UHGV virus genome: UHGV-0865506
DNA: 43,204 bases
Origin: a virus
Direction: 5' to 3' (one strand)
Below are positions 4,923 through 42,877 of the stretch, piece after piece. Made by a program: the position numbers and the translations under genes. Within the stretch, counting starts at the first letter, position 1. Each line of letters opens with the position of its first letter. The notes beneath the pieces are model-generated. The model worked only from the letters and a program-made list of their open reading frames with translations, did not search any database and was not told where the DNA came from.

Positions 4923-4937
4923 ACAGGAGAACAAATA

Positions 4938-11885: not shown

Positions 11886-12565
11886 TTGTCTGGTCATTGT
11901 TTGACGGTTCGGGCCTTATGGCCCAACCGTGGGCAGAAGCGGGCCATACTTGCTATTGTTTCAACTACGATGGTGCCGACCACGGCGACTACGCGCGATT
12001 GGGCGCAAAAGTTGAACACGAGAACATCCACTATATAAACGCGTGGATTGATAATAAGTTCGACTTCGAGGTTTCGCCAGATATTATTTTTGCGTTCCCT
12101 CCTTGCACAGATTTAGCCGTTAGTGGCGCGGCGCATTTCGAAACGAAGCGTAAGAAGAACCCAACGTTTCAGGTAGAGGCTGTTATCACATGCAAAGTGG
12201 CGGCACGCCTGGCTAAAAGGTATAACGTACCTTATATGATTGAGAACCCAGTTAGCGTCCTCTCGTCTTTGTGGCGTAAGCCCGATTATGTGTTCAATCC
12301 TTACGAATACGGCGGCTATCTACCGGAAGACGATACGCATCCAATGTTCCCTGAATACATAAAACCCCGAGACGCGTACCCTAAAAAGACATGTCTTTGG
12401 ACGGGTAATGGTTTCGTAATGCCGGTTAAGTCAGGTGTTGCCGTGGGTGATGGGTATTCTGACCAGCACAACAAACTTGGCGGTAAATCAGTGCGGACAA
12501 AAACAATCCGCAGCCTTACTCCTCGGGGTTTCGCAAAAGCAGTTTACGAGGCTAATCATGTCTAA
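11882..12565 (+). CDS. DNA (cytosine-5)-methyltransferase-like protein, compact, no obvious target-recognition domain
   Basis: LFDGSG (motif I-like), FAFPPCTDLAVSG (PC catalytic motif IV-like), MIENPVS (ENV motif VI-like); only 227 aa. Confidence 0.5.
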   Translation: MIVWSLFDGSGLMAQPWAEAGHTCYCFNYDGADHGDYARLGAKVEHENIHYINAWIDNKFDFEVSPDIIFAFPPCTDLAVSGAAHFETKRKKNPTFQVEAVITCKVAARLAKRYNVPYMIENPVSVLSSLWRKPDYVFNPYEYGGYLPEDDTHPMFPEYIKPRDAYPKKTCLWTGNGFVMPVKSGVAVGDGYSDQHNKLGGKSVRTKTIRSLTPRGFAKAVYEANHV

Positions 12566-13982
12566 GTTTCAAAGACGCGAGTACCAGAAACTCATGACCT
12601 CGTTCATGTTGCAACACCATCGCTGCAACATATGGGCAAGCATGGGCGCCGGGAAGACTGGCAGCGTACTGTGGGCATTAAACCGACTGTTCCGAAACGG
12701 GCAGCTTAATGACGAGGACCGCGTGTTAATCCTCGCCCCGTTACGTGTTGCGTCTGGCACATGGCCAGCAGAACAAGAGAAATGGAATTTCCCATGCCTG
12801 AGTGTCGTCGATGCTACCGGTTCAGAGAAGCGCCGCATCGCGGCGCTGGAGTCAGACGCTAATGTAATTTGTATTAACTATGAGGTTATAGAGTGGCTTA
12901 TCGACTATTACGGGGTAGATGACTGGCCCTTTACTGTGATAGTTAACGATGAAAGTACAAAGTTGAAATCGTACCGTAGCCGTTCTGGCGGGAGCAAGAG
13001 GGCAAAGGCGCTTAGTAAAGTAGCATTTAGAAATGTTAAGCGGCTGATAAACCTTACGGGAACACCGTCGCCGAACGGCCTCAAAGACTTGTGGGGGCAG
13101 AACTGGTTTATTGACGCTGGCGAGCGCCTCGGTTCTTCATACACGGCATTCACCGACCGATGGTTTAACTCTGTACAGAAAGGCAAATCGGCTATGGCGC
13201 GTGAGTACCATGCCCGCCCTGGTGCTGATAATGAGATTCACCAGAAGATGAAGGACATCAGTCTTACGATTGATGCTGCCGAGTGGTTCGGTTGTGAAGC
13301 ACCTATTATCGTGCCGGTGGAAATTGACCTGCCGAAGAAAGCACGTCAGGCGTACATCGATATGGAGGAGAAGTTATTCGCTGAACTTGAGAGCGGGGAA
13401 GTTGAAGCGGCTAACGCAGCGGCGAAGACGTCGAAGTGTTTGCAGATTGCATCCGGTGCCGTATATGTGTCCGGGCCGGATGGTGAAGCAACGAAAGAAT
13501 GGGAGAAAGTGCACGACACGAAACTGGATGCGCTGGAGTCCATTGTTGAGGAGTTACAGGGCGCGCCGTTACTGGTGGCCTATCAGTTCAAGCATGAACT
13601 GGAGCGTATCCTTAAGCGATTCCCACAGGCCCAGGCGTTTGCAAAAGGCGCTAAGGGCAATAAGCAGATGGAAGCGTGGAACCGCGGTGAAATCGAGATT
13701 TTGTGTGTGCATCCCGCATCAGCCGGGCATGGTTTGAATTTACAGGACGGCGGGCATCATCTGGCGTTTATTTCACAAGGGTGGAACCTTGAGCACTATT
13801 TGCAGGTTGTCGAGCGTATAGGCCCAGTACGCCAGAAACAGGCAGGCCATGAGCGCCCGGTGTTCCTGTATCACATCGTAGCTAAAGACACGCTGGACGA
13901 GGTTGTTGCCGCGCGTACCGACGAGAAGAAATCGGTGCAGGAAGAATTGCTTAATTACATGAAGAGACGAGGTAAGAAATGA
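12558..13982 (+). CDS. SNF2-family helicase
   Basis: Walker A ASMGAGKT, DExx box VNDEST, C-terminal helicase motifs; start at internal Met overlapping the upstream stop. Confidence 0.8.
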   Translation: MSKFQRREYQKLMTSFMLQHHRCNIWASMGAGKTGSVLWALNRLFRNGQLNDEDRVLILAPLRVASGTWPAEQEKWNFPCLSVVDATGSEKRRIAALESDANVICINYEVIEWLIDYYGVDDWPFTVIVNDESTKLKSYRSRSGGSKRAKALSKVAFRNVKRLINLTGTPSPNGLKDLWGQNWFIDAGERLGSSYTAFTDRWFNSVQKGKSAMAREYHARPGADNEIHQKMKDISLTIDAAEWFGCEAPIIVPVEIDLPKKARQAYIDMEEKLFAELESGEVEAANAAAKTSKCLQIASGAVYVSGPDGEATKEWEKVHDTKLDALESIVEELQGAPLLVAYQFKHELERILKRFPQAQAFAKGAKGNKQMEAWNRGEIEILCVHPASAGHGLNLQDGGHHLAFISQGWNLEHYLQVVERIGPVRQKQAGHERPVFLYHIVAKDTLDEVVAARTDEKKSVQEELLNYMKRRGKK

Positions 13983-16435: not shown

Positions 16436-18985
16436 TTAATTAAAACCATTGCCGAATCCGTCGGAGAAACCGCTGCCGTATGGCGCGACGCCGTCGTATT
16501 TATAGAAATCCGCTTCGTAGTTAATCCCGGTAATCTTAACTGTTCTGTCATCTCCGGGGTCAACTGTAGAAACGAGAATCATCTGAGCATTATGCCTTGC
16601 TTCGTTGCCGAATGAAAACTCAGTTTTTAGCGCGCTATTCCCCGTGTAAATCGCTTCTTGAGGCGCCGATAACATAATCACTTCACGGTCGTGACTCCCC
16701 GGCACAACTGCAACACTCTGAACTCCGCCATCACGCTTCTTAAGGATGAGTGAATGGTCATCCCCGGAGGTAAACGTAACCGGCTGTGATAACGTAAGCG
16801 TCAGCCCGTTAACGGCGATTATATAGCCATCCTGAGGGGCTATGCGAGAACCTTTCACCACACTTACGGCACGTCCTGGCATCGCAAAAATCCCTTCTTC
16901 TGTAGCCGTGAAAGATACCGTGACCTTTTTCAGCAGGTTTTTCTGGTATCGACGATATGCGGCCCAGTACGCCTGTCGATAATTACGGATACCTTTAGAG
17001 TCGTACGTTTCAGTATTAACCCCACCTTCGGCCGGGATGCTGATTGTCTCTTTGACGTTAGTATCCGGGTCGATGTATGAAAACTTAAGGCTATCGTATA
17101 CCTGGGCATCGTTAAACGTGCGCGTCCACTTCTCCGTAGCGGTAGTTTTGCTGCGGTGGGTGAATACCATCTCAGGGCCAATCCGCGGGCGTTCAAAGTC
17201 CAGAAGAATATCTGCACCTCTCCGATATGGGGTACAGAAAATTGCTTCCGCTATCGTGGTTACTATGTCCTGCATCGTAGTTTTGTAATCGTCGAATGTG
17301 TAGCAGAACTGACCGGCGGATGCGCTTCCGAAATAGCTTTCAATTTCGCTCTGTACCGCTAACAGTTTATCCATATTTGCCGTTGTCAGATTCAACGCGC
17401 CGACATCCGGGTCGCGAGCAAGCCGTATCAGGGACTGTACCGCTTGCGTGTTTGGCGTTCTTACGGAGTCAAAAACACCGTTACCGAGGTACTTGTATAC
17501 CATCTCAGTTACTACCATTCGCAATTGTGGTTGTTTAACCTCTGCGGCCCGTGGCGTCTGTTTACGTGCGGAATGCACGGTGGTTCTGTTGCCGAAGTTA
17601 GGTGTGGTGTCGCGTATTTGCCCGTACAGGTTTATGTAAGAAACCTCGTCCACTACTGTACCCTCAAAAGCAAGGTCAAGGTTTGTCACCCTGCGCGCCC
17701 GTACACGAACGTTAGACGGTGATGGCAGGTCAGCGTAGATTGTCACGCCTGTGTAATCCGAGGAGCGCCCGGAGATAGTGCCTTGTTTACTATATACAGG
17801 CCCGTAGGGTGTTCCGGTGTCGTCGAGTAACTGGTACTGCAACTCGACGGTAACGGAAGCCCTTAGTTTACTGCCGTTGTCTTTATACATGCCGTTAGCG
17901 GCGGCGATATTGGCGACGATGCGCTCTACCGGCAGACGGTTAAGCGTAGTCCAGTCCGTTAATGACTTATCATATGTGTTTGAGGGTGAAATCCACGCCT
18001 CGTTACCCTGTGTCAGCCGTGTGAAACCAGACGGCAACTTCTGCCATTCGGTGAGCATACCACCTACAGCGACTCTAACCTCGAAATCATCGACGTAAGT
18101 GACCACATAATTACCGCTTACGTTAGCGACATCTTTTACCAGAATGAGATTGAAAACAGCCACATCGCCAACTGACAGAATTTCTGTAAACGCGGAATCT
18201 CCGGTCGCGTCACGTACAATACCCGTTGTCCCTTGCAGCGATATCTCACCGGTATCGCTGGGGTTTACCCTTATGCCGTTTTGCGCTTTCAGTACCGCGC
18301 CATCTACTTCATTAGATGCGATGGTGGTATACAACTTTTGGTCGATAGGTTCGCCAACAAGAAGTTGAGGGGAGCTTGTGTTATTGGGTGATGTGTACGG
18401 GGCATACACCGCGACAGAAGTTCCGGTTATCTCCTGGACTTTGGTGTCACCGTCGGTGATGTCTTCTGCTTTAACGTCAAGATACCCGCGCCCGGCATCA
18501 TAGTAGCCATACTCAATGATGCGGCCCGCGTTATCGAAAACCTTATAAGTGGTCATAAGGTTATTAGGTATTGTCTGCACCCTACCGCAGATGTCATAAG
18601 TTCGCTCGTACGGGCGAGCTTTGTTATTCCGGTCTGTCAGGCTGTTATTCGGCGAGTCCGCTTGCTGGTTAGCGAGATTGTTAGACGCGCCCTTTGTTGA
18701 CGGTGTGAGTAATTTAGCTAGAGGTTTAAGGATTATGCTGAACACTTTCATCACACCCTTGATAGCACCGCCGCCAGCACCTTCCAGGACGTGGAAAACA
18801 GCATCCTGTTTTAACGCGTCGAAATTTTCTGTTACGTCGTTATCCTCTCCTATCTCTTCGAGGAAAACGCGAAACGGCACACCATCAGGGATATGTTTTA
18901 CGACGAAATTCAGCGGCGAGTCGTTATGCCGTTTTTGCGAGAACGTCCCGTCTTCGTTGCGGGTGTAGTGGATGACTATCGCCAA
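16436..18985 (-). CDS. tail tip / host specificity protein (lambda J-like)
   Basis: 849 aa, directly downstream of the K/L/M-like tail genes; assignment by size and position. Confidence 0.65.
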   Translation of the reverse strand: MAIVIHYTRNEDGTFSQKRHNDSPLNFVVKHIPDGVPFRVFLEEIGEDNDVTENFDALKQDAVFHVLEGAGGGAIKGVMKVFSIILKPLAKLLTPSTKGASNNLANQQADSPNNSLTDRNNKARPYERTYDICGRVQTIPNNLMTTYKVFDNAGRIIEYGYYDAGRGYLDVKAEDITDGDTKVQEITGTSVAVYAPYTSPNNTSSPQLLVGEPIDQKLYTTIASNEVDGAVLKAQNGIRVNPSDTGEISLQGTTGIVRDATGDSAFTEILSVGDVAVFNLILVKDVANVSGNYVVTYVDDFEVRVAVGGMLTEWQKLPSGFTRLTQGNEAWISPSNTYDKSLTDWTTLNRLPVERIVANIAAANGMYKDNGSKLRASVTVELQYQLLDDTGTPYGPVYSKQGTISGRSSDYTGVTIYADLPSPSNVRVRARRVTNLDLAFEGTVVDEVSYINLYGQIRDTTPNFGNRTTVHSARKQTPRAAEVKQPQLRMVVTEMVYKYLGNGVFDSVRTPNTQAVQSLIRLARDPDVGALNLTTANMDKLLAVQSEIESYFGSASAGQFCYTFDDYKTTMQDIVTTIAEAIFCTPYRRGADILLDFERPRIGPEMVFTHRSKTTATEKWTRTFNDAQVYDSLKFSYIDPDTNVKETISIPAEGGVNTETYDSKGIRNYRQAYWAAYRRYQKNLLKKVTVSFTATEEGIFAMPGRAVSVVKGSRIAPQDGYIIAVNGLTLTLSQPVTFTSGDDHSLILKKRDGGVQSVAVVPGSHDREVIMLSAPQEAIYTGNSALKTEFSFGNEARHNAQMILVSTVDPGDDRTVKITGINYEADFYKYDGVAPYGSGFSDGFGNGFN

Positions 18986-22975: not shown

Positions 22976-23395
22976 CTACTTTTCCTGTAATGCTTTGCGC
23001 TCAGCGTTATGGAACGACGCCACCTGGGTTCCAAGCCCTTTGAACTGGTCCAGCAATTTGTTAAACGCATCCTTAGAGAAAGGCTCGTCGTCAAAACTCC
23101 AGCCGTTTACTACTTCTGCCGCGAGTTGTCTGTTGAGGTCTTCCGCCAGTTCATTAACAGCCAGGTTATATTCAGTATAGTCGCCGGATTCTTTGGCTGC
23201 TTTTTCCAGTTCTTCGAAACGTGCCAACCCGCGACGGTACGCGATAATGAAAGCACGCCCTGCTTTAACGGCGGCATCCGCATCAGGGCTTACAACGTTA
23301 AGCCACTCCCCTGAGTCTTCGCCGTTCGGTAGCAGAATCGGCATCTTCTTGCCTACCAGTGCTTTCTCTTCGAAATAAAAATCAGAAAGTTTCAT
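22976..23395 (-). CDS. tail assembly chaperone (lambda G-like)
   Basis: 139 aa acidic protein immediately upstream of the tape measure region. Confidence 0.5.
   Translation of the reverse strand: MKLSDFYFEEKALVGKKMPILLPNGEDSGEWLNVVSPDADAAVKAGRAFIIAYRRGLARFEELEKAAKESGDYTEYNLAVNELAEDLNRQLAAEVVNGWSFDDEPFSKDAFNKLLDQFKGLGTQVASFHNAERKALQEK
22979..22985 (-). other. candidate -1 programmed ribosomal frameshift site (G GAA AAG)
   Basis: Heptamer immediately before the stop codon of the G-like gene; the -1 frame stays open into ORF 22611..22943. Confidence 0.3.
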
Positions 23396-23503
23396 TCTTT
23401 AATCCTTTGGTTAAGAGGTTACAGGTTAAAGGTAAATGCGCCAGACGGGAACCACCCGCTTTTCGTGTGCGACACTAGGCGCAAAATTATTCTATCACAT
23501 TAC

Positions 23504-23532
23504 TTGCACACCCCAATATAATAGGGTACTAT
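23504..23532 (+). promoter_or_regulatory. sigma70-like promoter TTGCAC-N17-TACTAT (TACTATTCA family) driving the rightward cassette
   Basis: TTGCACACCCCAATATAATAGGGTACTATTCA; near-identical to 32569..32600. Confidence 0.5.
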
Positions 23533-23562
23533 TCACTTACACCAACAATGAAGGGGTTTAAA

Positions 23563-23754
23563 ATGTCAAGTTTACCAGTTTCCTTAATTCTGTTTGCACT
23601 TCTCGCTTATTTCGCGCCTTTCCTGGTTGCGTATTTCCGCAACCATAAAGCGAAGTTGGCAATATTTATGGCTAACCTGTTTCTTGGTTGGGTTCTGCTG
23701 CCGTGGGTATTTATTTTAATCTGGGCGTGCAACTCGAATGTTAACGAGAAGTGA
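23563..23754 (+). CDS. small membrane protein
   Basis: Two predicted transmembrane helices; start at the internal Met with AAGGGG Shine-Dalgarno. Confidence 0.5.
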   Translation: MSSLPVSLILFALLAYFAPFLVAYFRNHKAKLAIFMANLFLGWVLLPWVFILIWACNSNVNEK

Positions 23755-23792
23755 GCTAGTATAGGACAAATCCTAAACACGAGGAAGTAAGC

Positions 23793-24932
23793 ATGGCCCA
23801 GAAGAAAATAACCGACGAACAGTTACAGGAAGAATTGAACGCCGGGATGAAGAATGTAGACATCGCCCGTAAATACGGCATCTCAGACCGCGTAATTCGT
23901 ATCCGTAAAGCGAAGCTGGCAAAGAAAGGCGTAGGTCACGGGCGTGATGTTAGTCACCTTGTACCGGACGGCTACAAGATTAAAGGGACGTCGTCCCTGG
24001 TGGACGAGTTTGGCAACACTAAGTTGCAATGGGTTAAGACCGACACCGATGCCGAACGTCAGGTCGAGTTGATGAAAGCCGTGATTGAAGGTATGAAGTC
24101 AGAGATTACACCGGTTGCGCCTGTTAAACCTGTTCGCGCCAAACGTGACGATAAACTGCTCAATCTCTACACTGTATCTGATTTCCATCTCGGTATGCTT
24201 GCATGGGCTGACGAGAGCGGCGATGACTGGGATATGAAGATTGCAGAAGACCTGTTCTCCCGCTGGTTCGATGCCGCGTTTCAGAAAGCACCGGATGCGG
24301 GGACTGGGGTTATTAACCTGCTGGGCGACTTCGCGCACTTCGATAGTCTTGATGCCGTTACCCCTGAGTCGCGTCATGTGTTAGACGCCGATACTCGCTA
24401 TCAGAAACTAGTTCGCTACATGATTCGTATGGTGCGTCGTGTTGTCGATATGGCGCTTGTTAAACATCACACAGTCAAACTTTTAATAGTTCAAGGTAAC
24501 CACGACCCTGTAGGCTCTGTATGGCTCGCCGAAATGTTCTGTACATTGTACGACAACGAACCTCGCGTATTTGTGGACACCTCCCCAGACGTATACAAGA
24601 TGGTCCAGCACGGGAAAACTACGCTATTCATGCATCATGGACACCGTGCGAGATTCGACGCCATAGAGTCAGTAATGATTTCTAAATTCCGTAAGGCTTT
24701 TGGAGAAAGCACATACAGCTACGCTCATGTAGGGCATCTACATCATCAGAAATTAGTAGAAAGCCGCAATATGGTAGTCGAACAACACCGAACCCTGGCT
24801 GCGAAAGATGCTTACGCATCGCGAGGGGGCTGGATGTCCGGTCGTAGTGCTAACGTGATAACTTATAGTGCCGAATATGGGGAGGTGGCACGTTTAACAA
24901 TATCACCAGAAATGATAGGGGGTATAAATTGA
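23793..24932 (+). CDS. calcineurin-like metallophosphoesterase with N-terminal helix-turn-helix-like region
   Basis: Motifs DFHLG, GDFAHFD, GNHD, HHGH and GHLHH match the metallophosphoesterase signature; N-terminus resembles an HTH. Confidence 0.65.
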   Translation: MAQKKITDEQLQEELNAGMKNVDIARKYGISDRVIRIRKAKLAKKGVGHGRDVSHLVPDGYKIKGTSSLVDEFGNTKLQWVKTDTDAERQVELMKAVIEGMKSEITPVAPVKPVRAKRDDKLLNLYTVSDFHLGMLAWADESGDDWDMKIAEDLFSRWFDAAFQKAPDAGTGVINLLGDFAHFDSLDAVTPESRHVLDADTRYQKLVRYMIRMVRRVVDMALVKHHTVKLLIVQGNHDPVGSVWLAEMFCTLYDNEPRVFVDTSPDVYKMVQHGKTTLFMHHGHRARFDAIESVMISKFRKAFGESTYSYAHVGHLHHQKLVESRNMVVEQHRTLAAKDAYASRGGWMSGRSANVITYSAEYGEVARLTISPEMIGGIN

Positions 24933-25402
24933 CATGGAATGATGTTTACGAATACGAAAACGGGAATCTTTACGCTAAGGACAGCGTAAACCCTAAGTAC
25001 CCGAAAGGACGTAAAGTAGGGTATGTGGACCAACGAGGGTATGTAAGAACTAAACTAGGGTCAAAAATGACATTCGCCCACAGAATTATATGGGAAATGT
25101 TTAACGGAGCTATACCAGAAGGCAAGGAGATTGACCATATAAACGGTGTGAAAAGCGATAACCGTATAGAGAATCTTCGACTGTGTGACCGGCGCATAAA
25201 CTGCAAAAATGCAGCAAAGCGCAGGGATAACTCGTCTGGCGTTACCGGGGTTAGTAAAACATATAACGGTAAGTGGGTAGTTCAAATTCAATATAACGGA
25301 AATAGAATAGCCAAGCGTTTCGACAACAAAGAAGACGCCGTAAGATATGCCGAAGGTTTTTACAAAGAAAAGAAAGACTTTACTGAGAGGCACGGAAAAT
25401 GA
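24929..25402 (+). CDS. HNH homing endonuclease with AP2-like domain (third copy)
   Basis: HNH motifs (EIDHINGVKSDNRIENLR) plus AP2-like GVSKTYNGKWVVQIQYNGNRIAKRF. Confidence 0.8.
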   Translation: MTWNDVYEYENGNLYAKDSVNPKYPKGRKVGYVDQRGYVRTKLGSKMTFAHRIIWEMFNGAIPEGKEIDHINGVKSDNRIENLRLCDRRINCKNAAKRRDNSSGVTGVSKTYNGKWVVQIQYNGNRIAKRFDNKEDAVRYAEGFYKEKKDFTERHGK

Positions 25403-25629
25403 CTTCAAAATACAACCGCACAATGACAAACACCCACGGCAGCACCATGACAGTAGACGTCTATGATGTGCTACGCGCCTTCGATATCCGTGACCCGGCG
25501 CTACAGCATGCGTTAAAGAAACTGCTGTGTATGGGTCTGCGCGGTCACAAAGACACCGGAACCGACTTAGCAGAAGCAATTGAAAGTCTGGAGAAGTTAC
25601 GGGAGTACAGGAGTAATATTGATGAGTGA
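25399..25629 (+). CDS. hypothetical protein
   Basis: Track ORF with ATGA overlap. Confidence 0.45.
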   Translation: MTSKYNRTMTNTHGSTMTVDVYDVLRAFDIRDPALQHALKKLLCMGLRGHKDTGTDLAEAIESLEKLREYRSNIDE

Positions 25630-25798
25630 AAATATTATGAAAACAATATATGTAATCCGTGTATATGACGAAGAATGGGATGAGTGGGTTGATATTTATG
25701 CTGTCGGTAGCAAGGAAGAGGCCTCGAAAGAAATGACAGAACGAAGTGACCGAGGCCAGTTAACTAACTTCTACGAAATGCCGTTCAAAAGTGAGTAA
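25622..25798 (+). CDS. hypothetical protein
   Basis: Track ORF 25580..25798 with start moved to the Met overlapping the upstream stop. Confidence 0.4.
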   Translation: MSENIMKTIYVIRVYDEEWDEWVDIYAVGSKEEASKEMTERSDRGQLTNFYEMPFKSE

Positions 25799-25802
25799 GA
25801 AA

Positions 25803-25830
25803 AAGGCCCCTTTCGGGGCCTTAGTTTTAT
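25803..25830. terminator. bidirectional rho-independent terminator
   Basis: Hairpin AGGCCCC-TTTC-GGGGCCT with T-rich flanks on both strands; separates the rightward cassette from the tail tube gene. Confidence 0.6.
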
Positions 25831-27002
25831 ACGTAACTAATACGTTGAATTACGATAGACGACTGATACTGGTTGCCTGTGGACTGTCCTTCTATGCTTT
25901 GGGTAATTGATTCCGGGCCAGATATTTCTGGTGTGACCGCCGTAAGCTCTGCGCGTTTTAAACTGAAAGACATAGCCCCGTTTACCCCCGCCAGAATAGA
26001 GTTAATCTCTACCTGCTGCTCGTTGATAAACTTCTGAATCATCGCCATGTCGTACAGCTTACCAGAGATGGAGAAGGTGTTAGCTGCGCGACCACGTTCC
26101 ACGAACGCGACGCTACTGTTGCCGAGTTCGAACTGCGCGGAAGCACCGTTGTCGTTGGTGATGGTCAGAGTATCGCAACGCAACGGCGTAGAACCGTCGA
26201 ACACAGACACATCTACAGAAGAGAACGGCTCGTCAGTGAATGTGACCTGGGAGAAGTCGGAACCTGCTGGCGCCGCGGTAAGAATCTCCTGACTCAGACC
26301 GATGAATGGGAAGCTGCCGGTTACCATCGCATTTACGGCTTGCTCGATAGTAAAACCGGAGATTTCCACACCTTTGGTCAACATGTACGCGTCCGGGTTC
26401 CCGCACTGTCCTTTGAACCACGTCAGGATGGAGAATGTCTTACACGCGTTACCGGTTTCCAGCTTGTCACCCGTTTTACCGTCGGTCTCGATAGGGCCTT
26501 CGGCGGTCAGGGTGTGTTGGATACCCGCACCCGTAACAACCGTAGCAGTTACCGCGGTAACGATAAACGGCTTGGCGTTGTCTCCGGTTAAGCCGTCGAA
26601 GTACAGAAGGTCGCCGACTTCAACGCCATCGGTAATGAAGCTACCGGCGGCGCGGGTGAAGGTTTTCGCTACCGGGTCTACCGTAATACCTACCGCAGTT
26701 AAGGTTACGCCATCCTGCCACGTAGACGTCATCGCGCCTGCGAGGAAATCATCCTGGCTACGTGAGCTAAGTTCGATTGCGTACTCACCACTAACCTGCT
26801 TGTTACCGGTGCGGATGGATGTGGTTTCACGGCTGCCGTCCAGTTCGTTGGAGGTCAGCGCGTCGCGGGTTACCGCAGGAACGCCGCCGGTGTTTCGCAA
26901 CGGCGACCAGACCGGGTTACTTGGTGTTACGCCCGGGGTCACTTCCGCCACATAGAATTGCGCGGTATTCGCGCCCTTAAAAGGAGTTGTAGCCATATTC
27001 AC
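25827..27002 (-). CDS. major tail (tube) protein
   Basis: 391 aa, in the major tail position of the lambda/HK97 gene order; Thr/Gly/Ser-rich. Confidence 0.6.
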   Translation of the reverse strand: MNMATTPFKGANTAQFYVAEVTPGVTPSNPVWSPLRNTGGVPAVTRDALTSNELDGSRETTSIRTGNKQVSGEYAIELSSRSQDDFLAGAMTSTWQDGVTLTAVGITVDPVAKTFTRAAGSFITDGVEVGDLLYFDGLTGDNAKPFIVTAVTATVVTGAGIQHTLTAEGPIETDGKTGDKLETGNACKTFSILTWFKGQCGNPDAYMLTKGVEISGFTIEQAVNAMVTGSFPFIGLSQEILTAAPAGSDFSQVTFTDEPFSSVDVSVFDGSTPLRCDTLTITNDNGASAQFELGNSSVAFVERGRAANTFSISGKLYDMAMIQKFINEQQVEINSILAGVNGAMSFSLKRAELTAVTPEISGPESITQSIEGQSTGNQYQSSIVIQRISYV

Positions 27003-35937: not shown

Positions 35938-37209
35938 TTAAAGTGCGAAAGTCACCGGGACGTTAATAACTGGTTTGCGAATCGGCATTTCATACGCGAT
36001 AGGGTATGTGGTTCCATCATTCTGGTGGTCCACACCACCTGATTTATCCGGTTCGCCGTTCTTGTCGTAAGCCTGTTGCTCGAGACATCGCGCCGTAACC
36101 GGACAAGCCTGCTCGTTAATCATGACCATACCAGATTCAAGCGCCTTATTCATCGCCGATACGCGGTCTTTAACCGGTGGGTTTGTCGATTTTGCACGCA
36201 CTTCGAACCCGGCCTGCTGTAACTGAGCAATATCGGATGTACTGGCGTTGTTGCTTTTACGGTTCTTGCCGCTGGCGTCCGGGTACATAACGATATAGTG
36301 GCCCTTACTTTTCCAGCGCTCGGTTATGGCCCGCACTACATCCGGCGTATCGAACATATCCACCAACTCGGCAACCGCGTGCCAGACCTTACCGCGTTGC
36401 ACGTAAACTGTGCTCGCCATGTGCCCTACGTTAAAGTCCTGCCCAATATACAGAGTCTCGCCAGGCTTGATTGTTTCGCGGCTGCTGTTTTTCCTGCGGT
36501 CGTAAGCGTAGTAGACCGTCCCCGCCGTGAGGTTTACGAACTCGCCGTTAATGTAAGCATCAATCAATTGCCCGGGGTAGGTATCTCGTAAGGACTGCAC
36601 ATAATCTTCTGGCAGGAACGGGTTAGACAGGGTGGACGCCTGAATCATCTCGTAACCAGGATTCTTTTTAACAACCCAGCGGTCATGCACGAAACGGAAT
36701 CCTTCCGGCGTAGTGAACACGGAAACGGTGTTAGCCGGTTTTGGCGTAATAGGTTTATATGTCCGTGGTAACTGGCGGTTACGGGCGATGACTTTGTTCC
36801 ACGCGTGTTCTGCGTGCTCCATGTTAAGGGTATCTAACTCGTCGATTTTTGCCCGAAACGATTCGTAGCCAACGATTCGTGCGGGGTTATCAAGCGTACG
36901 CAGAACAAAATCCCCGAATTGTCCGGATGACGTATATATTATGTTGTCAGACTTGTTGTATTTGTACCGGATACCCCAGTCTGTCAGCTTCTCTTCCATA
37001 CGGGGAGCAAGGATAAGGCGTACAAGGTCATAGGTCGGCTCATACATGGCAATGATAGAATCGCTACCACCTTCCATGCTGTCGAGTAGTGCAGAGTTAC
37101 ACATAACTTCGGATTTACCCGTACCGAAGCCCGCTACGAAGGCAGGGAACTTGCAATGCATGCCGAGAAACGCGCCTTGCGGTTCCGTTGCCGTGATATT
37201 AACGTTCAC
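35938..37209 (-). CDS. terminase large subunit
   Basis: Walker A-like FVAGFGTGKS near the N-terminus; size and position. Confidence 0.85.
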   Translation of the reverse strand: MNVNITATEPQGAFLGMHCKFPAFVAGFGTGKSEVMCNSALLDSMEGGSDSIIAMYEPTYDLVRLILAPRMEEKLTDWGIRYKYNKSDNIIYTSSGQFGDFVLRTLDNPARIVGYESFRAKIDELDTLNMEHAEHAWNKVIARNRQLPRTYKPITPKPANTVSVFTTPEGFRFVHDRWVVKKNPGYEMIQASTLSNPFLPEDYVQSLRDTYPGQLIDAYINGEFVNLTAGTVYYAYDRRKNSSRETIKPGETLYIGQDFNVGHMASTVYVQRGKVWHAVAELVDMFDTPDVVRAITERWKSKGHYIVMYPDASGKNRKSNNASTSDIAQLQQAGFEVRAKSTNPPVKDRVSAMNKALESGMVMINEQACPVTARCLEQQAYDKNGEPDKSGGVDHQNDGTTYPIAYEMPIRKPVINVPVTFAL

Positions 37210-37708
37210 CGGACACCACCTTAATGGTTACTTCACTGATTGGCTCGTCACGTACTTCTTCGGCGGTAACAGTTTTATTCAACCCCAGCTTAGCTGCGGC
37301 AAACGTAGCAGAGATGCCAGCGGCTCCTGTCTCAGTGAAATAGGCCTCTTCCAGTGCCTGGGCTGTCTCCCAGGCTTCTGCAAATGCAGGAATCTCGCGC
37401 AGCCACAGCTTAATAATTGGGATAGTGACGCCGATGTGTAGTGCGAAGCGGGCCAGTGACGGTGGTTTATCCTGAATCAGTGGGCGTTCGTCACCCTTAG
37501 ACGTAGGCACAAGCTCCCACGACGTGCGGTCGAAGAACTCGATTAATTCGTCACAATAGTCCGGGTCCCACAGCGCGGCGGAATTACGGGATGATTGATA
37601 AAGGCTCTGTTTGCCGCGCGGTCGTTTACGGCGACGGTTTGCGCTAACAGCTTCTTCATGTGCAGCTTGCACCACCTCTGGCGATGGCTGCTTGAGTTTC
37701 AGCTTCAT
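37199..37708 (-). CDS. terminase small subunit
   Basis: HTH-like segment; start at internal Met with AAGGGGA Shine-Dalgarno; overlaps the large subunit start. Confidence 0.55.
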   Translation of the reverse strand: MKLKLKQPSPEVVQAAHEEAVSANRRRKRPRGKQSLYQSSRNSAALWDPDYCDELIEFFDRTSWELVPTSKGDERPLIQDKPPSLARFALHIGVTIPIIKLWLREIPAFAEAWETAQALEEAYFTETGAAGISATFAAAKLGLNKTVTAEEVRDEPISEVTIKVVSGER

Positions 37709-37773
37709 AGAATCCCCTTGCATATGCGTCTGACCATCAGAGCGCACCAGACGCGCCCTACGCGTCTAAAGGG

Positions 37774-37803
37774 ATTATATAAGGGGATTGGGCTGTATGT
37801 ACA
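37774..37803 (-). promoter_or_regulatory. candidate promoter for the terminase genes (TGTACA-N18-TATAAT)
   Basis: Consensus -10 on the minus strand directly downstream of a terminator hairpin. Confidence 0.3.
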
Positions 37804-37826
37804 GAAAAGCCCTCCGTAGAGGGCTT
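37801..37826 (-). terminator. rho-independent terminator
   Basis: Hairpin AAGCCCTC-CGTA-GAGGGCTT followed on the minus strand by TTTTCTGT. Confidence 0.5.
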
Positions 37827-37927
37827 GTATCAGTTATATAGGCCGTGTCGTGGTGCTCTTTTACCATCGCCGCCATAATGGTCGTTGGCTACGGCGATAA
37901 CCCAAGCGTTAGGTATGATTAGTAGTC

Positions 37928-38107
37928 TCATTTGAAGAACCACAAAAGGATGCCTGCGATACCAGATAGCCCCATGCCTAAAACCATGGGCCACCAGATA
38001 TACCGTGGCAAATTGTAAAATACATCACTGTAGGCAGTGAAAGCTACTAGAAACGCCAGCCAAAACACCAGGTCACCGATGTTATTAAGTAATTTCAAGA
38101 TAATCAT
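37928..38107 (-). CDS. small membrane protein (about 59 aa), candidate
   Basis: Hand-derived ORF MIILKLLNNIGDLVFWLAFLVAF..., ATGA-coupled to the upstream gene. Confidence 0.3.
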   Translation of the reverse strand: MIILKLLNNIGDLVFWLAFLVAFTAYSDVFYNLPRYIWWPMVLGMGLSGIAGILLWFFK

Positions 38108-38364
38108 TCCCCACTCTCCCCTTTAGCAATGCGTTGTTCAGTTTTAGTAATACCGCGGCGCGTGAATAACACCGGGCTTGTTTTAACGTGCGTCATCAGA
38201 CGATTGTTATAAATTACGTGGCGCTCGCAATCAACGTCTTTGCTATACTTCGCAATCGTCATTTCGTTTATGCCGGTTTGTCGGCATGTCTCCGCCATCG
38301 TGCCATATTCTTTAATCAGGTTCGGAATGCTGGTAATCATCCTAAGAAATTCCTCGTTGTCCAC
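38104..38364 (-). CDS. hypothetical protein
   Basis: Track ORF. Confidence 0.45.
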   Translation of the reverse strand: MDNEEFLRMITSIPNLIKEYGTMAETCRQTGINEMTIAKYSKDVDCERHVIYNNRLMTHVKTSPVLFTRRGITKTEQRIAKGESGE

Positions 38365-38509
38365 ATCGCATTCGGATATTTATTATCGCGGTCCTGCACT
38401 ACGGAAACCATGTTCCCACGTTGCACCAGGCAGAAGTGCCGTTGCTGCTCGCCGTTGTAGCGACGCCAGATTGCCTCTTCAATTGCTGCGTTAATGTCAC
38501 TGAACATAA

Positions 38510-38701
38510 CTACCCCACTATCTCATCGCCTAACCACGCCGTTTCTCGTATATCGTCGACCACACAGGCTGCGTGCTCACGGCTAATCGCAAAAATGTAG
38601 AAGCTAAACTTCTTCCCGTCGGCGTCGATATGGTTAACAGAGTATGGTTTCCACAGGACGCCATCAATCACTACTGGTTCAGGCGCTTTCATGACCATCA
38701 C
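38510..38701 (-). CDS. hypothetical protein
   Basis: Track ORF with alternative start codon. Confidence 0.35.
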   Translation of the reverse strand: MMVMKAPEPVVIDGVLWKPYSVNHIDADGKKFSFYIFAISREHAACVVDDIRETAWLGDEIVG

Positions 38702-38891
38702 CGGAGGCTTTGTTCAGGTTGAAGCGGTTAATCAGTTCACGGCGCGTCTCATAAAGCGACTCAACCATTTGCTCAGCTACCGCGATTTTAGTATTCAGGA
38801 CGTGCATCACGTGGCTAATGTCTACACCGCTATTAACGGCCTCCACCATCATCTTTTCGTATTCACGGTCGGTCATATGCTTACGCCTCAA
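38679..38891 (-). CDS. hypothetical protein
   Basis: Track ORF with alternative start codon; true start may be an internal Met. Confidence 0.35.
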   Translation of the reverse strand: MRRKHMTDREYEKMMVEAVNSGVDISHVMHVLNTKIAVAEQMVESLYETRRELINRFNLNKASGDGHESA

Positions 38892-39103
38892 TTAATCAAA
38901 TAATAAATATCATCACGGGCGAACTCATCCGCATCATCCTGGCAGTCGATATCGTAGTCGCCGTCGCCCCACTCAATCGCCATTACTCGCGCTAACTGTC
39001 GGCGCATCCGCTTGTTGTTCTTTAGGTCTGTAAATATCTTAAGTTCTTTGTCGTACGCACGTACCATCATCTTCATTTTGCTTTTCATTTCTTCTCTCCC
39101 CAC
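38888..39103 (-). CDS. hypothetical acidic protein
   Basis: Track ORF. Confidence 0.4.
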   Translation of the reverse strand: MGREEMKSKMKMMVRAYDKELKIFTDLKNNKRMRRQLARVMAIEWGDGDYDIDCQDDADEFARDDIYYLIN

Positions 39104-39382
39104 ATGCGATTGAGATACTTGTTCTTGTCTGGCCCCTGGAAACTGTTGCGTTTCATCAGTTCCTCACGTGTCGGGAACGGAGTGTGACTGACTTTACGGC
39201 CTACTCGTAATGGTTGGCTAACTGGACCTTGTTCGCTCATTTCTTCTCTCCTGCATAAGCTGCTTTCAGTGTCTGCATCGCAGCGAACCAGAACGCGGCC
39301 GCCGGGATGCTGTTGCTCAGGTTACTAACGGCGATGCGTGCCATCAGTTGTGCGTCTTTGAATGCTTCTATATCTGTGATTT

Positions 39383-39580
39383 TCATTCGTAACCCCCAAA
39401 CTTACGTAAAGTGCCTTTAGTTATATATTTATAGCGAGCCACTACCGTATCCACGTCATAATCCATTAGTGCGCCTGTTTCTTCTCCTTCTGGTGTCATA
39501 CTCGGCCCGTAAACAGAAAGACCCATCTCGTTAAGGTACTCCATAAACTGCTCTACCGTTTTCTTCTGGTAACGCTTCAT
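39383..39580 (-). CDS. hypothetical protein
   Basis: Track ORF, first gene after the promoter at 39614..39642. Confidence 0.45.
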   Translation of the reverse strand: MKRYQKKTVEQFMEYLNEMGLSVYGPSMTPEGEETGALMDYDVDTVVARYKYITKGTLRKFGGYE

Positions 39581-39613
39581 CTTCTCTACTCCGTTCTCGT
39601 TGTTGATGGAGTA

Positions 39614-39642
39614 AATATAGTAGGGTCGATGGTAATAGTCAA
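39614..39642 (-). promoter_or_regulatory. sigma70 promoter TTGACT-N17-TATATT
   Basis: Near-consensus hexamers on the minus strand, immediately after the lysis-cassette terminator. Confidence 0.5.
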
Positions 39643-39662
39643 CTAGTCATTGCAGAAAATAG

Positions 39663-39694
39663 ATAAAAAAATACCCGGCTGGGTCAGGGCCGGG
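39663..39694 (-). terminator. rho-independent terminator after the endolysin gene
   Basis: Hairpin CCCGGC-loop-GCCGGG followed on the minus strand by TATTTTTTTATCTATTTT. Confidence 0.65.
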
Positions 39695-39760
39695 ATAAAA
39701 CTGGAGAGCAGAGGGATGGAGCAGGAGGTGATTTAAGTATCGTCTGATTACTCTCAGGTG

Positions 39761-41942: not shown

Positions 41943-42151
41943 TCTACATAATCCGGGAACTGGTCCTTGTATTTCTGTAACTCTTTTTGCTGTTCGTCAA
42001 TAATCCAGTCGCGATACGCCAACTCCGCGGCGATAGCCGATTTGCTGTTTAACCCTTCTCCGGTCATTGCCATCACATGTCTTGAATAGTAATTGTTAGT
42101 CATGTCGAGCATTTCTAAATCGCGCTCTGCGTATAATTTAATCATAATCAC
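41897..42151 (-). CDS. hypothetical protein
   Basis: Track ORF, ATGA-coupled. Confidence 0.45.
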   Translation of the reverse strand: MIMIKLYAERDLEMLDMTNNYYSRHVMAMTGEGLNSKSAIAAELAYRDWIIDEQQKELQKYKDQFPDYVECANCGSVTHVEGVE

Positions 42152-42366
42152 TTCTCCTGTTTACCAAGTCGCTTAGGTGAGCAGATAGCACGTACCTCTG
42201 AATCGTTTGGCTTGTCACCCTGAAACAGAAAGTGCGCGTTCTCCGCGGCGCGTGCCGCTGACTGGCACGCCTCCATTGAGTAAAACGTTTCTGCTGCCGC
42301 TAGTTGCATCTGGCCTGCGGACAATACCCAGATAAATAAGATGCTGGTCATTTCTTTAACCCGCAT
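42148..42366 (-). CDS. predicted secreted protein
   Basis: N-terminal signal-peptide-like segment MTSILFIWVLSAGQMQLAAA. Confidence 0.45.
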   Translation of the reverse strand: MRVKEMTSILFIWVLSAGQMQLAAAETFYSMEACQSAARAAENAHFLFQGDKPNDSEVRAICSPKRLGKQEK

Positions 42367-42701
42367 TTAACGCACATACACGGAAATCCTACTCCGTAAA
42401 ATTGCCATTCGTGCTCGCATTCTTCAGGTTTAGCCACACCACATTTACGGCAACCGGATTGCTCGTGACCAAGCGCACCCTTGCGGATAAGTTTGTACGC
42501 CTCCACGTCACCAGTAGCTTGGGCCAGCGCCAGTTGCAGCTCCTTAATCTGCGCCGACGCATCACGTAACTGATTCTTAAGTGACTGCACCTCATGCGCC
42601 AGGTCTTCGCTCCGGCTGTTATTTACCTGCTGCCGTAGCTGGTCGATCAGGTACTCGAATACTTCGTTTTTGTTACTCATCAGCTTCACCCATTTTCTCA
42701 T
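42348..42701 (-). CDS. coiled-coil protein with C-terminal Cys-rich zinc-finger-like motif
   Basis: CRKCG...CEHEW...CMCVKCG; true start may be Met at about 42680. Confidence 0.45.
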   Translation of the reverse strand: MRKWVKLMSNKNEVFEYLIDQLRQQVNNSRSEDLAHEVQSLKNQLRDASAQIKELQLALAQATGDVEAYKLIRKGALGHEQSGCRKCGVAKPEECEHEWQFYGVGFPCMCVKCGLKK

Positions 42702-42810
42702 CCGCCCCGACTAGAAGCGATTTAGTGTCTCCGTTGCACACCGAAGTGCTGCCCATTATTTCGTAAGCATCTACCAGTTCGCCTAAAGTCCAGCTACCGT
42801 ACCCGCCCAT
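42673..42810 (-). CDS. small protein (about 45 aa), candidate
   Basis: Hand-derived ORF with strong GAGGAGA Shine-Dalgarno, directly downstream of the promoter at 42842..42870. Confidence 0.3.
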   Translation of the reverse strand: MGGYGSWTLGELVDAYEIMGSTSVCNGDTKSLLVGADEKMGEADE

Positions 42811-42841
42811 CTTCCGTCTCTCCTCTCGTTTGTGTAAATGA

Positions 42842-42870: not shown

Positions 42871-42877
42871 GTAAATT

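What the first reader, a model, noticed from the sequence alone, without database searches (positions are those of the whole stretch)
23504..25830. Rightward cassette inside the tail operon encoding an HTH-metallophosphoesterase
Between the tail chaperone and tail tube genes, on the opposite strand, lies a self-contained unit: promoter (23504..23532), small membrane protein, a 379-aa HTH-like region fused to a full calcineurin-like metallophosphoesterase motif set, an HNH endonuclease, two small ORFs, and a bidirectional terminator (25803..25830). Class III cyclic-nucleotide phosphodiesterases share this fold, so degradation of defence signalling nucleotides is one hypothesis; an SbcD/Mre11-like nuclease or a protein phosphatase are alternatives. 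The placement and orientation mark it as accessory cargo rather than morphogenesis.
Basis: partly seen in the sequence, partly recalled or inferred. Interest (0 to 1): 0.7.

Follow-up and report, generated by a model that had tools for sequence, protein, structure and literature searches.

The report
Phage HTH-metallophosphoesterase accessory operon
A five-gene operon on the opposite strand inside the tail genes of a Kagunavirus-type coliphage is real but ordinary for its group; its main gene belongs to a very common, biochemically uncharacterised phage enzyme family (phage T1 gp16, Bas01_0050) that most likely cuts DNA rather than destroying immune signalling nucleotides.

Summary
A promoter-to-terminator operon (23504..25822, + strand) lies between the tail assembly chaperone and tail tube genes. 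The window is a near-complete Kagunavirus (Guernseyvirinae) genome, and the operon is a fixed feature of that subfamily, not recent cargo.

Its genes are:
- a T4 Imm-family two-helix membrane protein;
- a 379-aa HTH-metallophosphoesterase (MPE);
- a sporadically distributed HNH homing endonuclease, inserted at 24915..25398;
- two small unknown ORFs.

A 44%-identical ortholog, Bas01_0050, is reported as toxic in E. coli. It is dispensable, and it is mutated in phage Bas1 escapers of the DRT7 defence system.

Best reading: an HTH-tethered, metal-dependent nuclease acting on host DNA. The cyclic-nucleotide hypothesis has no specific support. This is a new member of a known, uncharacterised family; interest is moderate to low.

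The parts
23504..23532 (+). Putative sigma-70 promoter TTGCAC-17-TACTAT for the operon
   Evidence: Sequence. Conserved as TTGCAT-17-TATTAT in Jerseyvirus f18SE. The scanner gives an overlapping alternative at 23494..23522. No transcription start has been mapped.
23563..23754 (+). Imm-family membrane protein, 63 aa with two predicted transmembrane helices (alternative upstream ATG at 23548)
   Evidence: PF14373 Imm_superinfect E 9.3e-13, 48.3 bits against a cutoff of 27.9. phrog_1039 'immunity to superinfection' E 1.1e-22. 70-100% identical in ZCEC5, HSE2, Snoke, Golestan and f18SE.
23793..24932 (+). HTH-metallophosphoesterase, 379 aa (PHROG 704; ortholog of T1 gp16 and Bas01_0050)
   Evidence: phrog_704 E 8e-163 over the full length. 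4,537 clusters at 50% identity. 44% identity to Bas01_0050, E 2e-110. AF2 pLDDT 92.
23793..23933 (+). N-terminal three-helix HTH domain (aa 1-47)
23973..24098 (+). Family-specific beta-hairpin plus helix (aa 61-102), consensus KGxSTLY..DG....QWVK
24147..24929 (+). Binuclear metallophosphoesterase catalytic domain (aa 119-379) with all five motifs
24929..25402 (+). Free-standing HNH_3 (+AP2-like) homing endonuclease; the insertion relative to ZCEC5 spans about 24915..25398
   Evidence: PF13392 E 5.1e-22. The ZCEC5 alignment breaks at 24914/25399. Only 8 phage records carry the full-length insertion, at 95-99% identity. HSE2 carries a different HNH (37% identical) at the same site.
25399..25629 (+). 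Small conserved ORF, 76 aa, function unknown (phrog_2452)
   Evidence: phrog_2452 E 2.4e-36, matching the C-terminal part of the profile. 91-100% identical in HSE2, ZCEC5, Snoke and f18SE. ATGA overlap with the HNH stop.
25622..25798 (+). Small ORF, 58 aa, function unknown
   Evidence: No family hit. 98% identical in ZCEC5 and 62% in Snoke.
25803..25822 (.). Bidirectional intrinsic terminator hairpin shared with the convergent tail tube gene
   Evidence: 8-bp stem with 6 GC pairs and T-runs on both strands. Free energy -17.4 and -16.3 kcal/mol, z -3.7 and -3.9. Annotated as a terminator on both strands in Snoke.

Best explanation
The region is a conserved, host-RNA-polymerase-driven accessory operon of Guernseyvirinae phages. 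It is embedded antisense in the tail gene block.

Shown here:
- Five tightly packed genes run from a sigma-70-like promoter to a bidirectional terminator.
- Gene 1 is a T4 Imm-family membrane protein.
- Gene 2 belongs to the very large phage family PHROG 704, which includes T1 gp16 and Bas01_0050. It consists of an N-terminal LuxR/sigma-4/resolvase-like HTH, a family-specific beta-hairpin plus helix, and a metallophosphoesterase domain with every metal ligand and the catalytic His intact.
- Gene 3 is a selfish HNH homing endonuclease inserted at the 3' end of gene 2.

Inferred: the HTH-MPE is a Mn2+/Fe2+-type phosphodiesterase that works on DNA, that is, a nuclease. The HTH holds it on duplex DNA while the binuclear centre hydrolyses backbone phosphodiesters. 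Its target is most likely host DNA. The purpose would be host takeover, nucleotide supply or blunting host responses. That would explain why an ortholog is toxic when expressed alone, why it is dispensable for plaque formation, and why losing it lets phage Bas1 escape the DRT7 reverse-transcriptase defence.

Also inferred, from T4 Imm only: the Imm-like protein probably excludes superinfecting phage DNA at the inner membrane.
For: Family and active site:
- phrog_704 'DNA repair exonuclease' matches at E 8e-163 over the full length.
- The family has 4,537 clusters at 50% identity, with the full-length architecture retained.
- Metal ligands are invariant across 84 diverse members.
- The motif I and II contexts (DFHLG, GDFAH) align with Thermotoga Mre11/SbcD (DWHLG, GDLLH) in the best, though non-significant, PDB profile hit.

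Fold:
- The model has pLDDT 92.
- Lower hits are Rv0805 at 12.1, GpdQ at 12.4, and PP1/PP5 at or below 9.2.

DNA-binding module:

Genomic context is always DNA metabolism or the early-late boundary, never structural genes:
- T1 and tiwna: helicase, VRR-NUC, Dam ... MPE, then lysis genes.
- Pseudomonas lambdoid prophages: NinB ... Holliday junction resolvase ... MPE, then the Q antiterminator.

Experimental data on a 44%-identical ortholog:
- Bas1 escapers of DRT7 carry missense or frameshift mutations in Bas01_0050.
- Its expression in E. coli was toxic (bioRxiv 10.64898/2026.02.16.706125).

Precedents for phage MPE proteins that destroy host DNA:
- T5 A1, a predicted metallophosphatase, is reported as essential and sufficient for host chromosome digestion (bioRxiv 10.64898/2026.04.02.716235).
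- Mycobacteriophage A10ZJ24 gp48 (PMC12287305).

In the only Kagunavirus transcriptome found, the Imm gene peaks with the DNA polymerase and methylase genes, while most of the other genes were assigned to a separate middle class (PMC12645636). That dataset has low resolution.
Against: - No biochemical assay exists for any family member, so the substrate is inferred.
- No sequence-level match to any characterised nuclease is significant. The best PDB profile E-value is 0.076 for SbcD.
- The protein lacks the Mre11/SbcD capping domain, and the genome encodes no Rad50/SbcC.
- In K1G and Golestan the gene is followed by a HAD-type PNKP 3'-phosphatase and a P-loop kinase. That could instead indicate an end-healing role.
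- Profile comparison with the T5 A1 family shows only a superfamily-level relationship (probability 41%).
- I found no evidence that Guernseyvirinae degrade host DNA.
- The toxicity and DRT7 data come from a Drexlerviridae ortholog, not from this phage, and from a preprint.
Confidence: 0.55

Rival explanations
1. Nucleic-acid end-healing enzyme. The MPE would remove 2',3'-cyclic or 3'-phosphates from broken RNA or DNA, like the metallophosphoesterase module of bacterial Pnkp. It would work with a kinase and phosphatase to repair damage from host anticodon nucleases or other nucleases.
For: In K1G and Golestan the genes directly downstream of the MPE are a HAD_PNKP 3'-phosphatase (PF25109, E 6.7e-20) and a P-loop dNMP-kinase-like protein (phrog_139, E 6e-46). 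Together these resemble a split T4-Pnkp. The K1G annotation notes the same three genes as similar to Era103 and T1. That bacterial Pnkp uses an MPE-fold healing domain is established knowledge.
Confidence: 0.13
2. Phage DNA end-processing or recombination nuclease: an Mre11-like enzyme working without Rad50. It would act on the phage's own replication or recombination intermediates, or on packaging substrates, rather than on host DNA.
For: The closest folds are Mre11, SbcD and DP1. In lambdoid prophages the gene sits in the nin-type recombination region, next to NinB/Orf and Holliday junction resolvases. In T1-like phages it sits after a helicase and VRR-NUC.
Against: Frameshift mutants of the Bas1 ortholog are viable, so any replication role is dispensable. 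No Rad50/SbcC, capping domain or partner-binding motif is present. Toxicity when expressed alone suggests action on host molecules.
Confidence: 0.17
3. Anti-defence phosphodiesterase that hydrolyses cyclic nucleotide or oligonucleotide immune messengers from CBASS, Pycsar, Thoeris or type III CRISPR.
Against: These enzymes rank below the nuclease-type MPEs. NCBIfam, PADLOC and PDB sequence searches give no match to CpdA-type models. A DNA-binding HTH is unexplained by a small-molecule substrate. Toxicity in E. coli K-12, and loss-of-function escape from a reverse-transcriptase/primase defence that was paired with lambda gam mutants, point to DNA metabolism. No phage anti-signalling enzyme with this fold turned up in the literature searched.
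Confidence: 0.08
4. Regulatory protein: an HTH transcription factor, or a NinI-like protein phosphatase, that controls the early-to-late switch. The MPE domain would act as a phosphatase or sensor rather than a nuclease.
For: In several lineages the gene sits immediately before late functions. It precedes the Q antiterminator in Pseudomonas prophages (the slot of lambda ninI), TerS/TerL in Dhillonvirus, and the lysis genes in T1-like phages. There is a weak hit of the HTH to a late transcriptional activator PHROG (phrog_836, E 9.5e-4).
Against: PPP-type phosphatases are the most distant MPE class (Z at or below 9.4). The GDxxDRG and GNHE signatures are replaced by GDFAHFD and GNHD. Frameshift mutants of the Bas1 ortholog are viable, so it is not an essential late activator. 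In Guernseyvirinae the gene is not near a late-gene boundary.
Confidence: 0.05

Closest known systems
Phage T1 gp16 (ST16) / BASEL Bas01_0050 / PHROG 704 'DNA repair exonuclease' (pVOG VOG9929)
   Same: Full-length homologs with the same HTH, hairpin-helix and MPE architecture and similar length (376-379 aa). Identity to Bas01_0050 is 44%, E 2e-110. phrog_704 matches at E 8e-163. An HNH_3 homing endonuclease lies immediately downstream in T1 and Bas1 as well.
   Different: The genomic position differs. In T1-like phages the gene ends the replication operon before the lysis genes. Here it sits in an antisense island inside the tail genes and is paired with an Imm-family gene. The names attached to the family are predictions; no member has a demonstrated activity.
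Mre11 / SbcD nucleases
   Different: No capping domain, no Rad50/SbcC-binding region and no Rad50/SbcC gene in the genome. An N-terminal HTH is present instead. Sequence similarity is not significant (E 0.076).
Archaeal PolD small subunit DP1 (3'-5' proofreading exonuclease)
   Different: 12% identity. No DP2 partner. The phage uses a family A polymerase. DP1's OB domain is absent.
Phage T5 A1 (with the DNA-binding protein A2)
   Same: A predicted metallophosphatase that is toxic and is reported as essential and sufficient for host DNA degradation. It works with a separate DNA-binding protein. Distant A1 homologs carry N-terminal HTH domains. There is local similarity after motif III (NHDxxxSxWL).
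   Different: Only a superfamily-level relationship (hhalign probability 41%). A1 is 556 aa with an unrelated N-terminal half, and it is essential. The T5 two-TM protein T5.005 is not an Imm family member.
Mycobacteriophage A10ZJ24 gp48 metallophosphoesterase
   Same: A phage MPE with demonstrated phosphodiesterase activity. It is toxic, damages host genomic DNA and acts as a counter-defence factor (PMC12287305).
   Different: A different MPE family. No HTH is described in the parts of that paper read here, and no sequence relationship was tested here.
Class III cyclic-nucleotide phosphodiesterases (CpdA, Rv0805) and GpdQ
   Different: Lower structural similarity than the nucleases, no sequence-level match, and these enzymes have no HTH.
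T4 Imm (superinfection immunity protein), for gene 1
   Same: PF14373 match above the curated cutoff. Small protein with two hydrophobic helices.
   Different: 63 aa against 83 aa in T4 (T4 length from my own knowledge). Exclusion activity and specificity are untested.

Membership tests
Calcineurin-like metallophosphoesterase superfamily | Five signature motifs supplying the binuclear metal ligands: DxH, GD, GNH[DE], H, GHxH | tested here: met
   D130/H132, D179, N236/H237/D238, H282 and H315/H317 are present. They are invariant or at least 90% conserved in 84 homologs.
Calcineurin-like metallophosphoesterase superfamily | Beta-sandwich MPE fold | tested here: met
Calcineurin-like metallophosphoesterase superfamily | Pfam Metallophos or Metallophos_2 score above the gathering threshold | tested here: not met
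   22.3 bits against 27, and 18.4 against 21.5. Only 22 and 16 of 84 members match at all, at E of 0.01 or better. This is a divergent branch with no Pfam family of its own.
PHROG 704 / T1 gp16 / Bas01_0050 family | Full-length homology, including the N-terminal HTH and the hairpin-helix linker | tested here: met
   phrog_704 E 8e-163, residues 3-375 on profile positions 1-389 of 390. 44% identity to Bas01_0050 across residues 1-374. Representative hits cover the full length.
Mre11/SbcD nuclease family | C-terminal capping domain following the MPE core | tested here: not met
Mre11/SbcD nuclease family | Partner Rad50/SbcC SMC-type ATPase encoded alongside | tested here: not met
   No such gene appears in the collinear, fully annotated K1G genome or among the window's ORFs of 100 aa or more.
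Mre11/SbcD nuclease family | Mn2+-dependent exo- or endonuclease activity on DNA | not testable with these tools
   Needs a biochemical assay.
Class III cyclic-nucleotide phosphodiesterase (CpdA/Rv0805) | Sequence or structure closer to CpdA/Rv0805 than to other MPE classes | tested here: not met
Class III cyclic-nucleotide phosphodiesterase (CpdA/Rv0805) | Hydrolysis of 3',5'-cyclic nucleotides | not testable with these tools
   Needs an enzyme assay.
PPP / lambda phosphatase family | GDxxDRG and GNHE motifs, and structural proximity to PPP enzymes | tested here: not met
T5 A1 family | Specific homology beyond the shared superfamily motifs | tested here: inconclusive
   hhalign of the full profiles aligns only the N-terminus (probability 23%). 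The MPE parts give probability 41%, E 2.7e-4, with motif I misaligned.
Imm_superinfect (T4 Imm) family, gene 1 | PF14373 match above the gathering threshold | tested here: met
   48.3 bits against 27.9, E 9.3e-13. phrog_1039 E 1.1e-22.
Free-standing HNH_3 homing endonuclease, gene 3 | HNH_3 domain, plus presence/absence polymorphism at a fixed site among close relatives | tested here: met
   PF13392 E 5.1e-22. Precise 484-bp insertion relative to ZCEC5. The full-length element is in only 8 phage records, at 95-99% identity, while the flanks are about 89% identical.

The most novel reading that the evidence does not exclude
The HTH-MPE family (T1 gp16, Bas01_0050 and this protein) may be the unidentified host-chromosome-degrading nuclease of T1-like, Dhillonvirus and Guernseyvirinae siphophages. 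It would be a single-chain functional analogue of T5 A1 plus A2. Its DNA-damage products would be what host systems such as DRT7 sense, and possibly also the m6dAMP-sensing systems that protect against a Tunavirinae phage. In Guernseyvirinae it would be coupled with an Imm-type membrane protein in one exclusion and takeover operon.
Probability: 0.3. Interest if true: 0.6.

Novelty: new member of a known kind. Interest (0 to 1): 0.35.

Why it matters
This locus is a routine copy of a gene found in more than 2,000 sequenced phages and about 4,500 protein clusters at 50% identity. Databases label the gene inconsistently: DNA repair exonuclease, DNA polymerase II small subunit, phosphatase, transcriptional regulator, even a Mur ligase.

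No activity has been demonstrated for any member. A preprint already links an ortholog to host toxicity and to triggering of the DRT7 defence. Pinning down the substrate would correct thousands of annotations. It might also identify how T1-like and related therapeutic coliphages and Salmonella phages attack host DNA or are sensed by immunity.

For this window specifically, the value is mostly negative. The anti-CBASS-type reading should not be carried forward without assays.

Tried and rejected
- **Direct sequence searches of the MPE.** Against PDB (phmmer and a family profile), NCBIfam and PADLOC I got only non-significant or HTH-only hits.
- **T5 comparison.** I tested whether the family is specifically related to T5 A1, and whether the T5 A2 / 2-TM / A1 gene trio mirrors Imm plus HTH-MPE. 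Profile comparisons gave 16-41% probability. A2 does not match the HTH. T5.005 is not an Imm family member. I rejected homology and kept it as a functional analogy.
- **ORF4 partner test.** I tested whether ORF4 (76 aa) relates to the dGTP_diPhyd_N/DUF3310-like protein next to the MPE in Pseudomonas prophages. There was no similarity.
- **Conserved partner genes.** I looked for partners across lineages. Imm and ORF4 are restricted to Guernseyvirinae.
- **CRISPRi-ART dataset.** Phage PTXU04 looked promising as a fitness dataset, but nothing in the text read (92 coding sequences, a 2,198-aa putative polyvalent protein) links it to this cassette. I did not check it for an ortholog.
- The genome-contig scan with the family alignment failed, so I used a single distant member instead.
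- **Upstream conserved block (23396..23495).** It is not significantly structured (z -1.2 to -1.6).
- **RNA genes.** No Rfam families or tRNAs in the window.
- **Literature.** I found no biochemical study of the family.
Full report
**What the window is.** Megablast of the region, and of the first 25 kb, finds about 420-500 phage genomes, nearly all Salmonella or Escherichia Guernseyvirinae (Kagunavirus, Jerseyvirus). The best are about 86-89% identical: RP180, 536P11, K1G and ZCEC5. The 43.2-kb window is therefore an almost complete genome of a new Kagunavirus-level phage. Its layout matches K1G: replication genes on one strand, and terminase, head and tail genes on the other.

**Checking the observation.** Between the tail assembly chaperone (22976..23395, - strand, PF08748, plus its frameshift extension with PF23812) and the tail tube gene (25827..27002, - strand, PF18906, E 2.8e-37) lie five + strand ORFs:
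- 23563..23754 (63 aa);
- 23793..24932 (379 aa);
- 24929..25402 (157 aa);
- 25399..25629 (76 aa);
- 25622..25798 (58 aa).

A mechanical start for the first ORF exists at 23548, but ATG 23563 follows a GAAGGGG ribosome-binding site and matches the annotation of relatives. The last three junctions overlap by 4, 4 and 8 nt, as expected of an operon.

The consensus scanner preferred an overlapping ATCACA-17-TATAAT, which is less conserved. Promoter-like sites are not enriched over shuffles, so the promoter remains a conserved prediction.

The terminator hairpin at 25803..25822 is strong on both strands (-17.4 and -16.3 kcal/mol; 0 of 200 shuffles fold as well). It fills the 28-bp gap between the convergent stop codons, and the same element is annotated in phage Snoke. 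The cassette has lower G+C (0.44-0.48) than the structural genes around it (0.51-0.56), similar to parts of the replication region.

**How the cassette varies among relatives.** Synteny in Snoke, HSE2, ZCEC5, Golestan, K1G and f18SE shows a constant core: the promoter region, the Imm-like gene and the MPE gene. The slot between the MPE stop codon and the terminator is variable.
- ZCEC5 has ORF4 directly after the MPE.
- Snoke has an extra 66-aa ORF.
- K1G and Golestan carry a HAD-type PNKP 3'-phosphatase (PF25109, E 6.7e-20) plus a P-loop dNMP-kinase-like protein (phrog_139).
- f18SE carries an Ant/Rha-like protein.

In this window the slot holds an HNH_3 endonuclease. Relative to ZCEC5 this is a clean 484-bp insertion at 24915..25398. 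Only eight records in the phage database carry the full-length element. There it is 95-99% identical, while the flanking DNA in the Salmonella records that carry it is about 89% identical. HSE2 has a different HNH, 37% identical, at the same position. This is the signature of a mobile homing endonuclease. The operon as a whole is a lineage-wide feature. Only its 3' half behaves like exchangeable cargo.

**Gene 1.** The protein matches PF14373 (Imm_superinfect) above the curated cutoff, at 48.3 bits against 27.9, and phrog_1039 at E 1.1e-22. It has two hydrophobic helices. Its function is inferred by analogy with T4 Imm: blocking DNA entry of superinfecting phages. That is untested.

**Gene 2, family membership.** Pfam sees the metallophosphoesterase domain only below threshold. 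NCBIfam and PDB sequence searches give nothing significant, and PADLOC gives no hit. PHROG 704 ('DNA repair exonuclease') matches end to end at E 8e-163.

An exhaustive search of 1.84 billion representatives finds 4,537 clusters at E of 1e-3 or better and 1,144 at 1e-30 or better. Most are 370-420 aa and align over the full length. tblastn finds the gene in 2,013 phage records. These include Guernseyvirinae, Dhillonvirus (74% identity), Drexlerviridae including T1 itself (ST16), Klebsiella T1-like phages, Vibrio and roseobacter phages, Campylobacter CP8-type myoviruses and a Salicola jumbo phage. Database names for it are inconsistent.

**Gene 2, sequence and structure.** In an alignment of 84 members at 31-50% identity, D130, H132, G178, D179, N236, H237, H282, G314 and H317 are invariant. 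H315, D238, H182 and D184 are at least 90% conserved. The binuclear centre and the catalytic histidine are therefore under strict selection.

An AlphaFold2 model built on that alignment has mean pLDDT 92. It shows three parts:
- a three-helix HTH (residues 8-44);
- a low-confidence linker followed by a conserved beta-hairpin plus helix (61-102, consensus KGxSTLY..DG....QWVK);
- an MPE sandwich running from about residue 119 to the C-terminus.

**Gene 2, context elsewhere.**
- In T1, tiwna and Bas1 the gene closes the helicase / VRR-NUC / Dam operon just before the lysis genes.
- In Dhillonvirus it lies between the lysis and terminase genes.
- In an uncultured 41-kb phage it ends a rightward run of unannotated genes, opposite the replication genes.
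- In Pseudomonas and Stenotrophomonas lambdoid prophages it sits in the nin-type region. There it follows NinB/Orf and a Holliday junction resolvase. In two of the three loci it comes immediately before the Q-like antiterminator, the slot that ninI occupies in lambda (the lambda gene order is from my own knowledge).

No partner gene is conserved across lineages. The recurring neighbours are DNA-metabolism genes, not structural or signalling genes.

**Experimental evidence from the literature.** No paper in the searchable library characterises the family biochemically. A 2026 preprint on DRT7/UG10 reverse transcriptases (bioRxiv 10.64898/2026.02.16.706125) reports that spontaneous Bas1 mutants escaping DRT7 carry missense or frameshift mutations in Bas01_0050. 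[quoted passage not shown] The lambda escapers from the same screen were gam mutants.

I verified that Bas01_0050 is the T1-gp16-position gene of phage AugustePiccard. It is 44% identical to the window protein over residues 1-374, E 2e-110. So an ortholog is dispensable, harmful to the host on its own, and functionally connected to host DNA-metabolism sensing.

Two other phage MPE proteins are reported to destroy host DNA:
- T5 A1, a predicted metallophosphatase that is essential and sufficient for chromosome digestion (bioRxiv 10.64898/2026.04.02.716235).
- Mycobacteriophage A10ZJ24 gp48 (PMC12287305).

Profile comparison with a T5 A1 family alignment shows only a superfamily-level relationship. 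Distant A1 homologs do, however, also carry N-terminal HTH domains. A Kagunavirus transcriptome places the Imm gene in the same temporal class as the DNA polymerase and methylase genes, while most other genes fall in a separate middle class. Its resolution is poor (PMC12645636).

**Most likely mechanism.** The operon is transcribed by host RNA polymerase from its own promoter, independently of the late tail transcript that converges on the shared terminator. The HTH-MPE binds DNA through its HTH and hydrolyses phosphodiester bonds at the binuclear metal site. The most probable target is host DNA, for takeover, nucleotide supply or interference with host responses (confidence about 0.55).

What is established here or reported:
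- established here: gene structure, family membership, intact active site, nuclease-like fold and DNA-binding domain;
- reported for an ortholog: toxicity, dispensability and the DRT7 link.

What remains inferred is the DNA substrate, the host target and the timing of expression.

The rivals are:
- an end-healing enzyme working with PNKP-like partners, suggested by the K1G/Golestan cargo, which this genome lacks;
- a dispensable recombination or end-processing nuclease for phage DNA;
- a regulator or NinI-like phosphatase, the least compatible structurally.

**Novelty and score.** The cassette is already annotated in hundreds of genomes, and the protein family is known by name though not by function. 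This window adds one more member, plus a rare HNH insertion. I rate it a new member of a known kind, with moderate to low interest (0.35). The family itself deserves biochemical work. The most novel reading that remains open is that it is the host-DNA-degrading nuclease of T1-like and related siphophages and the trigger sensed by DRT7. I put that at about 0.3 probability.

Noticed in passing
window 24915..25398; L021 (T1) 42028..42510; L022 (Bas1) 17209..17694; L009 (Vibrio phage) 4741..5250: An HNH_3(+AP2-like) homing endonuclease lies immediately downstream of the HTH-MPE gene in this phage, in T1 (ST15), in Bas1 (0051) and in a Vibrio phage. The HNH proteins are 38-40% identical to each other, about as diverged as the MPEs (44%). 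HSE2 has yet another HNH (37% identical) at the same site. This could be repeated homing into the conserved 3' end of the MPE gene or an old linkage; I did not resolve which.
   Followed up: partly
L019 (K1G) 12327..13366; L010 (Golestan) 3628..4670: In K1G and Golestan the slot downstream of the MPE holds a HAD-type PNKP 3'-phosphatase, mislabelled 'polynucleotide kinase', plus a separate P-loop dNMP-kinase-like protein. Together these resemble a split T4 Pnkp-like pair next to the MPE.
   Followed up: partly
window 23396..23495: The intergenic block upstream of the tail chaperone gene is highly conserved between Kagunavirus and Jerseyvirus, with long invariant runs including an imperfect dyad TGCGCC...GGCGCA. 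It is not significantly structured as RNA (z about -1.2 to -1.6). It may hold the RBS and a late promoter or regulatory site that restarts tail-gene transcription after the bidirectional terminator.
   Followed up: partly
P0391, P0393, P0394, P0421, P0433 (distant T5 A1 homologs): Homologs of the T5 host-DNA-degradation protein A1, about 530 aa and 45-49% identical, carry precomputed N-terminal HTH Pfam domains (HTH_23, HTH_38, HTH_7, HTH_31; CENP-B N-terminal domain). Many of these come from contigs far shorter than the T5 genome. An HTH-plus-MPE architecture therefore recurs in a second phage MPE family.
   Followed up: no
phage records Jk06, Salmonella phage 36, RDJL Phi 1, phiJLA23, mEp010: In several T1-like phages and roseophages the HTH-MPE gene appears as two or more short ORFs. 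In mEp010 a homing endonuclease and a terminator are annotated under the match. This suggests interruption by mobile elements, or frameshifts or sequencing errors.
   Followed up: no
L012 6385..8499; L018 6256..8490; L014 5759..8083: In two of three Pseudomonas/Stenotrophomonas lambdoid prophages the HTH-MPE sits directly upstream of the Q-like antiterminator; in all three it lies in the nin-type region, and in two it follows a Holliday junction resolvase, the slot of the ninI phosphatase in lambda. Two of the three loci have a dGTP_diPhyd_N-domain protein immediately upstream.
   Followed up: partly
phage records CTH7, PST-H1, pse-D34, NCTh5, nctD30: In these Salmonella Jerseyvirus records the gene under the match is annotated 'UDP-N-acetylmuramoylalanyl-D-glutamate--2,6-diaminopimelate ligase'. 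This looks like an annotation error that has spread between records.
   Followed up: no
window 37750..39760 and 42700..43204: These stretches have no ORF of 100 aa or more on either strand. The collinear K1G genome has a comparable stretch with no annotated gene (its 36453..38610). I did not examine them.
   Followed up: no
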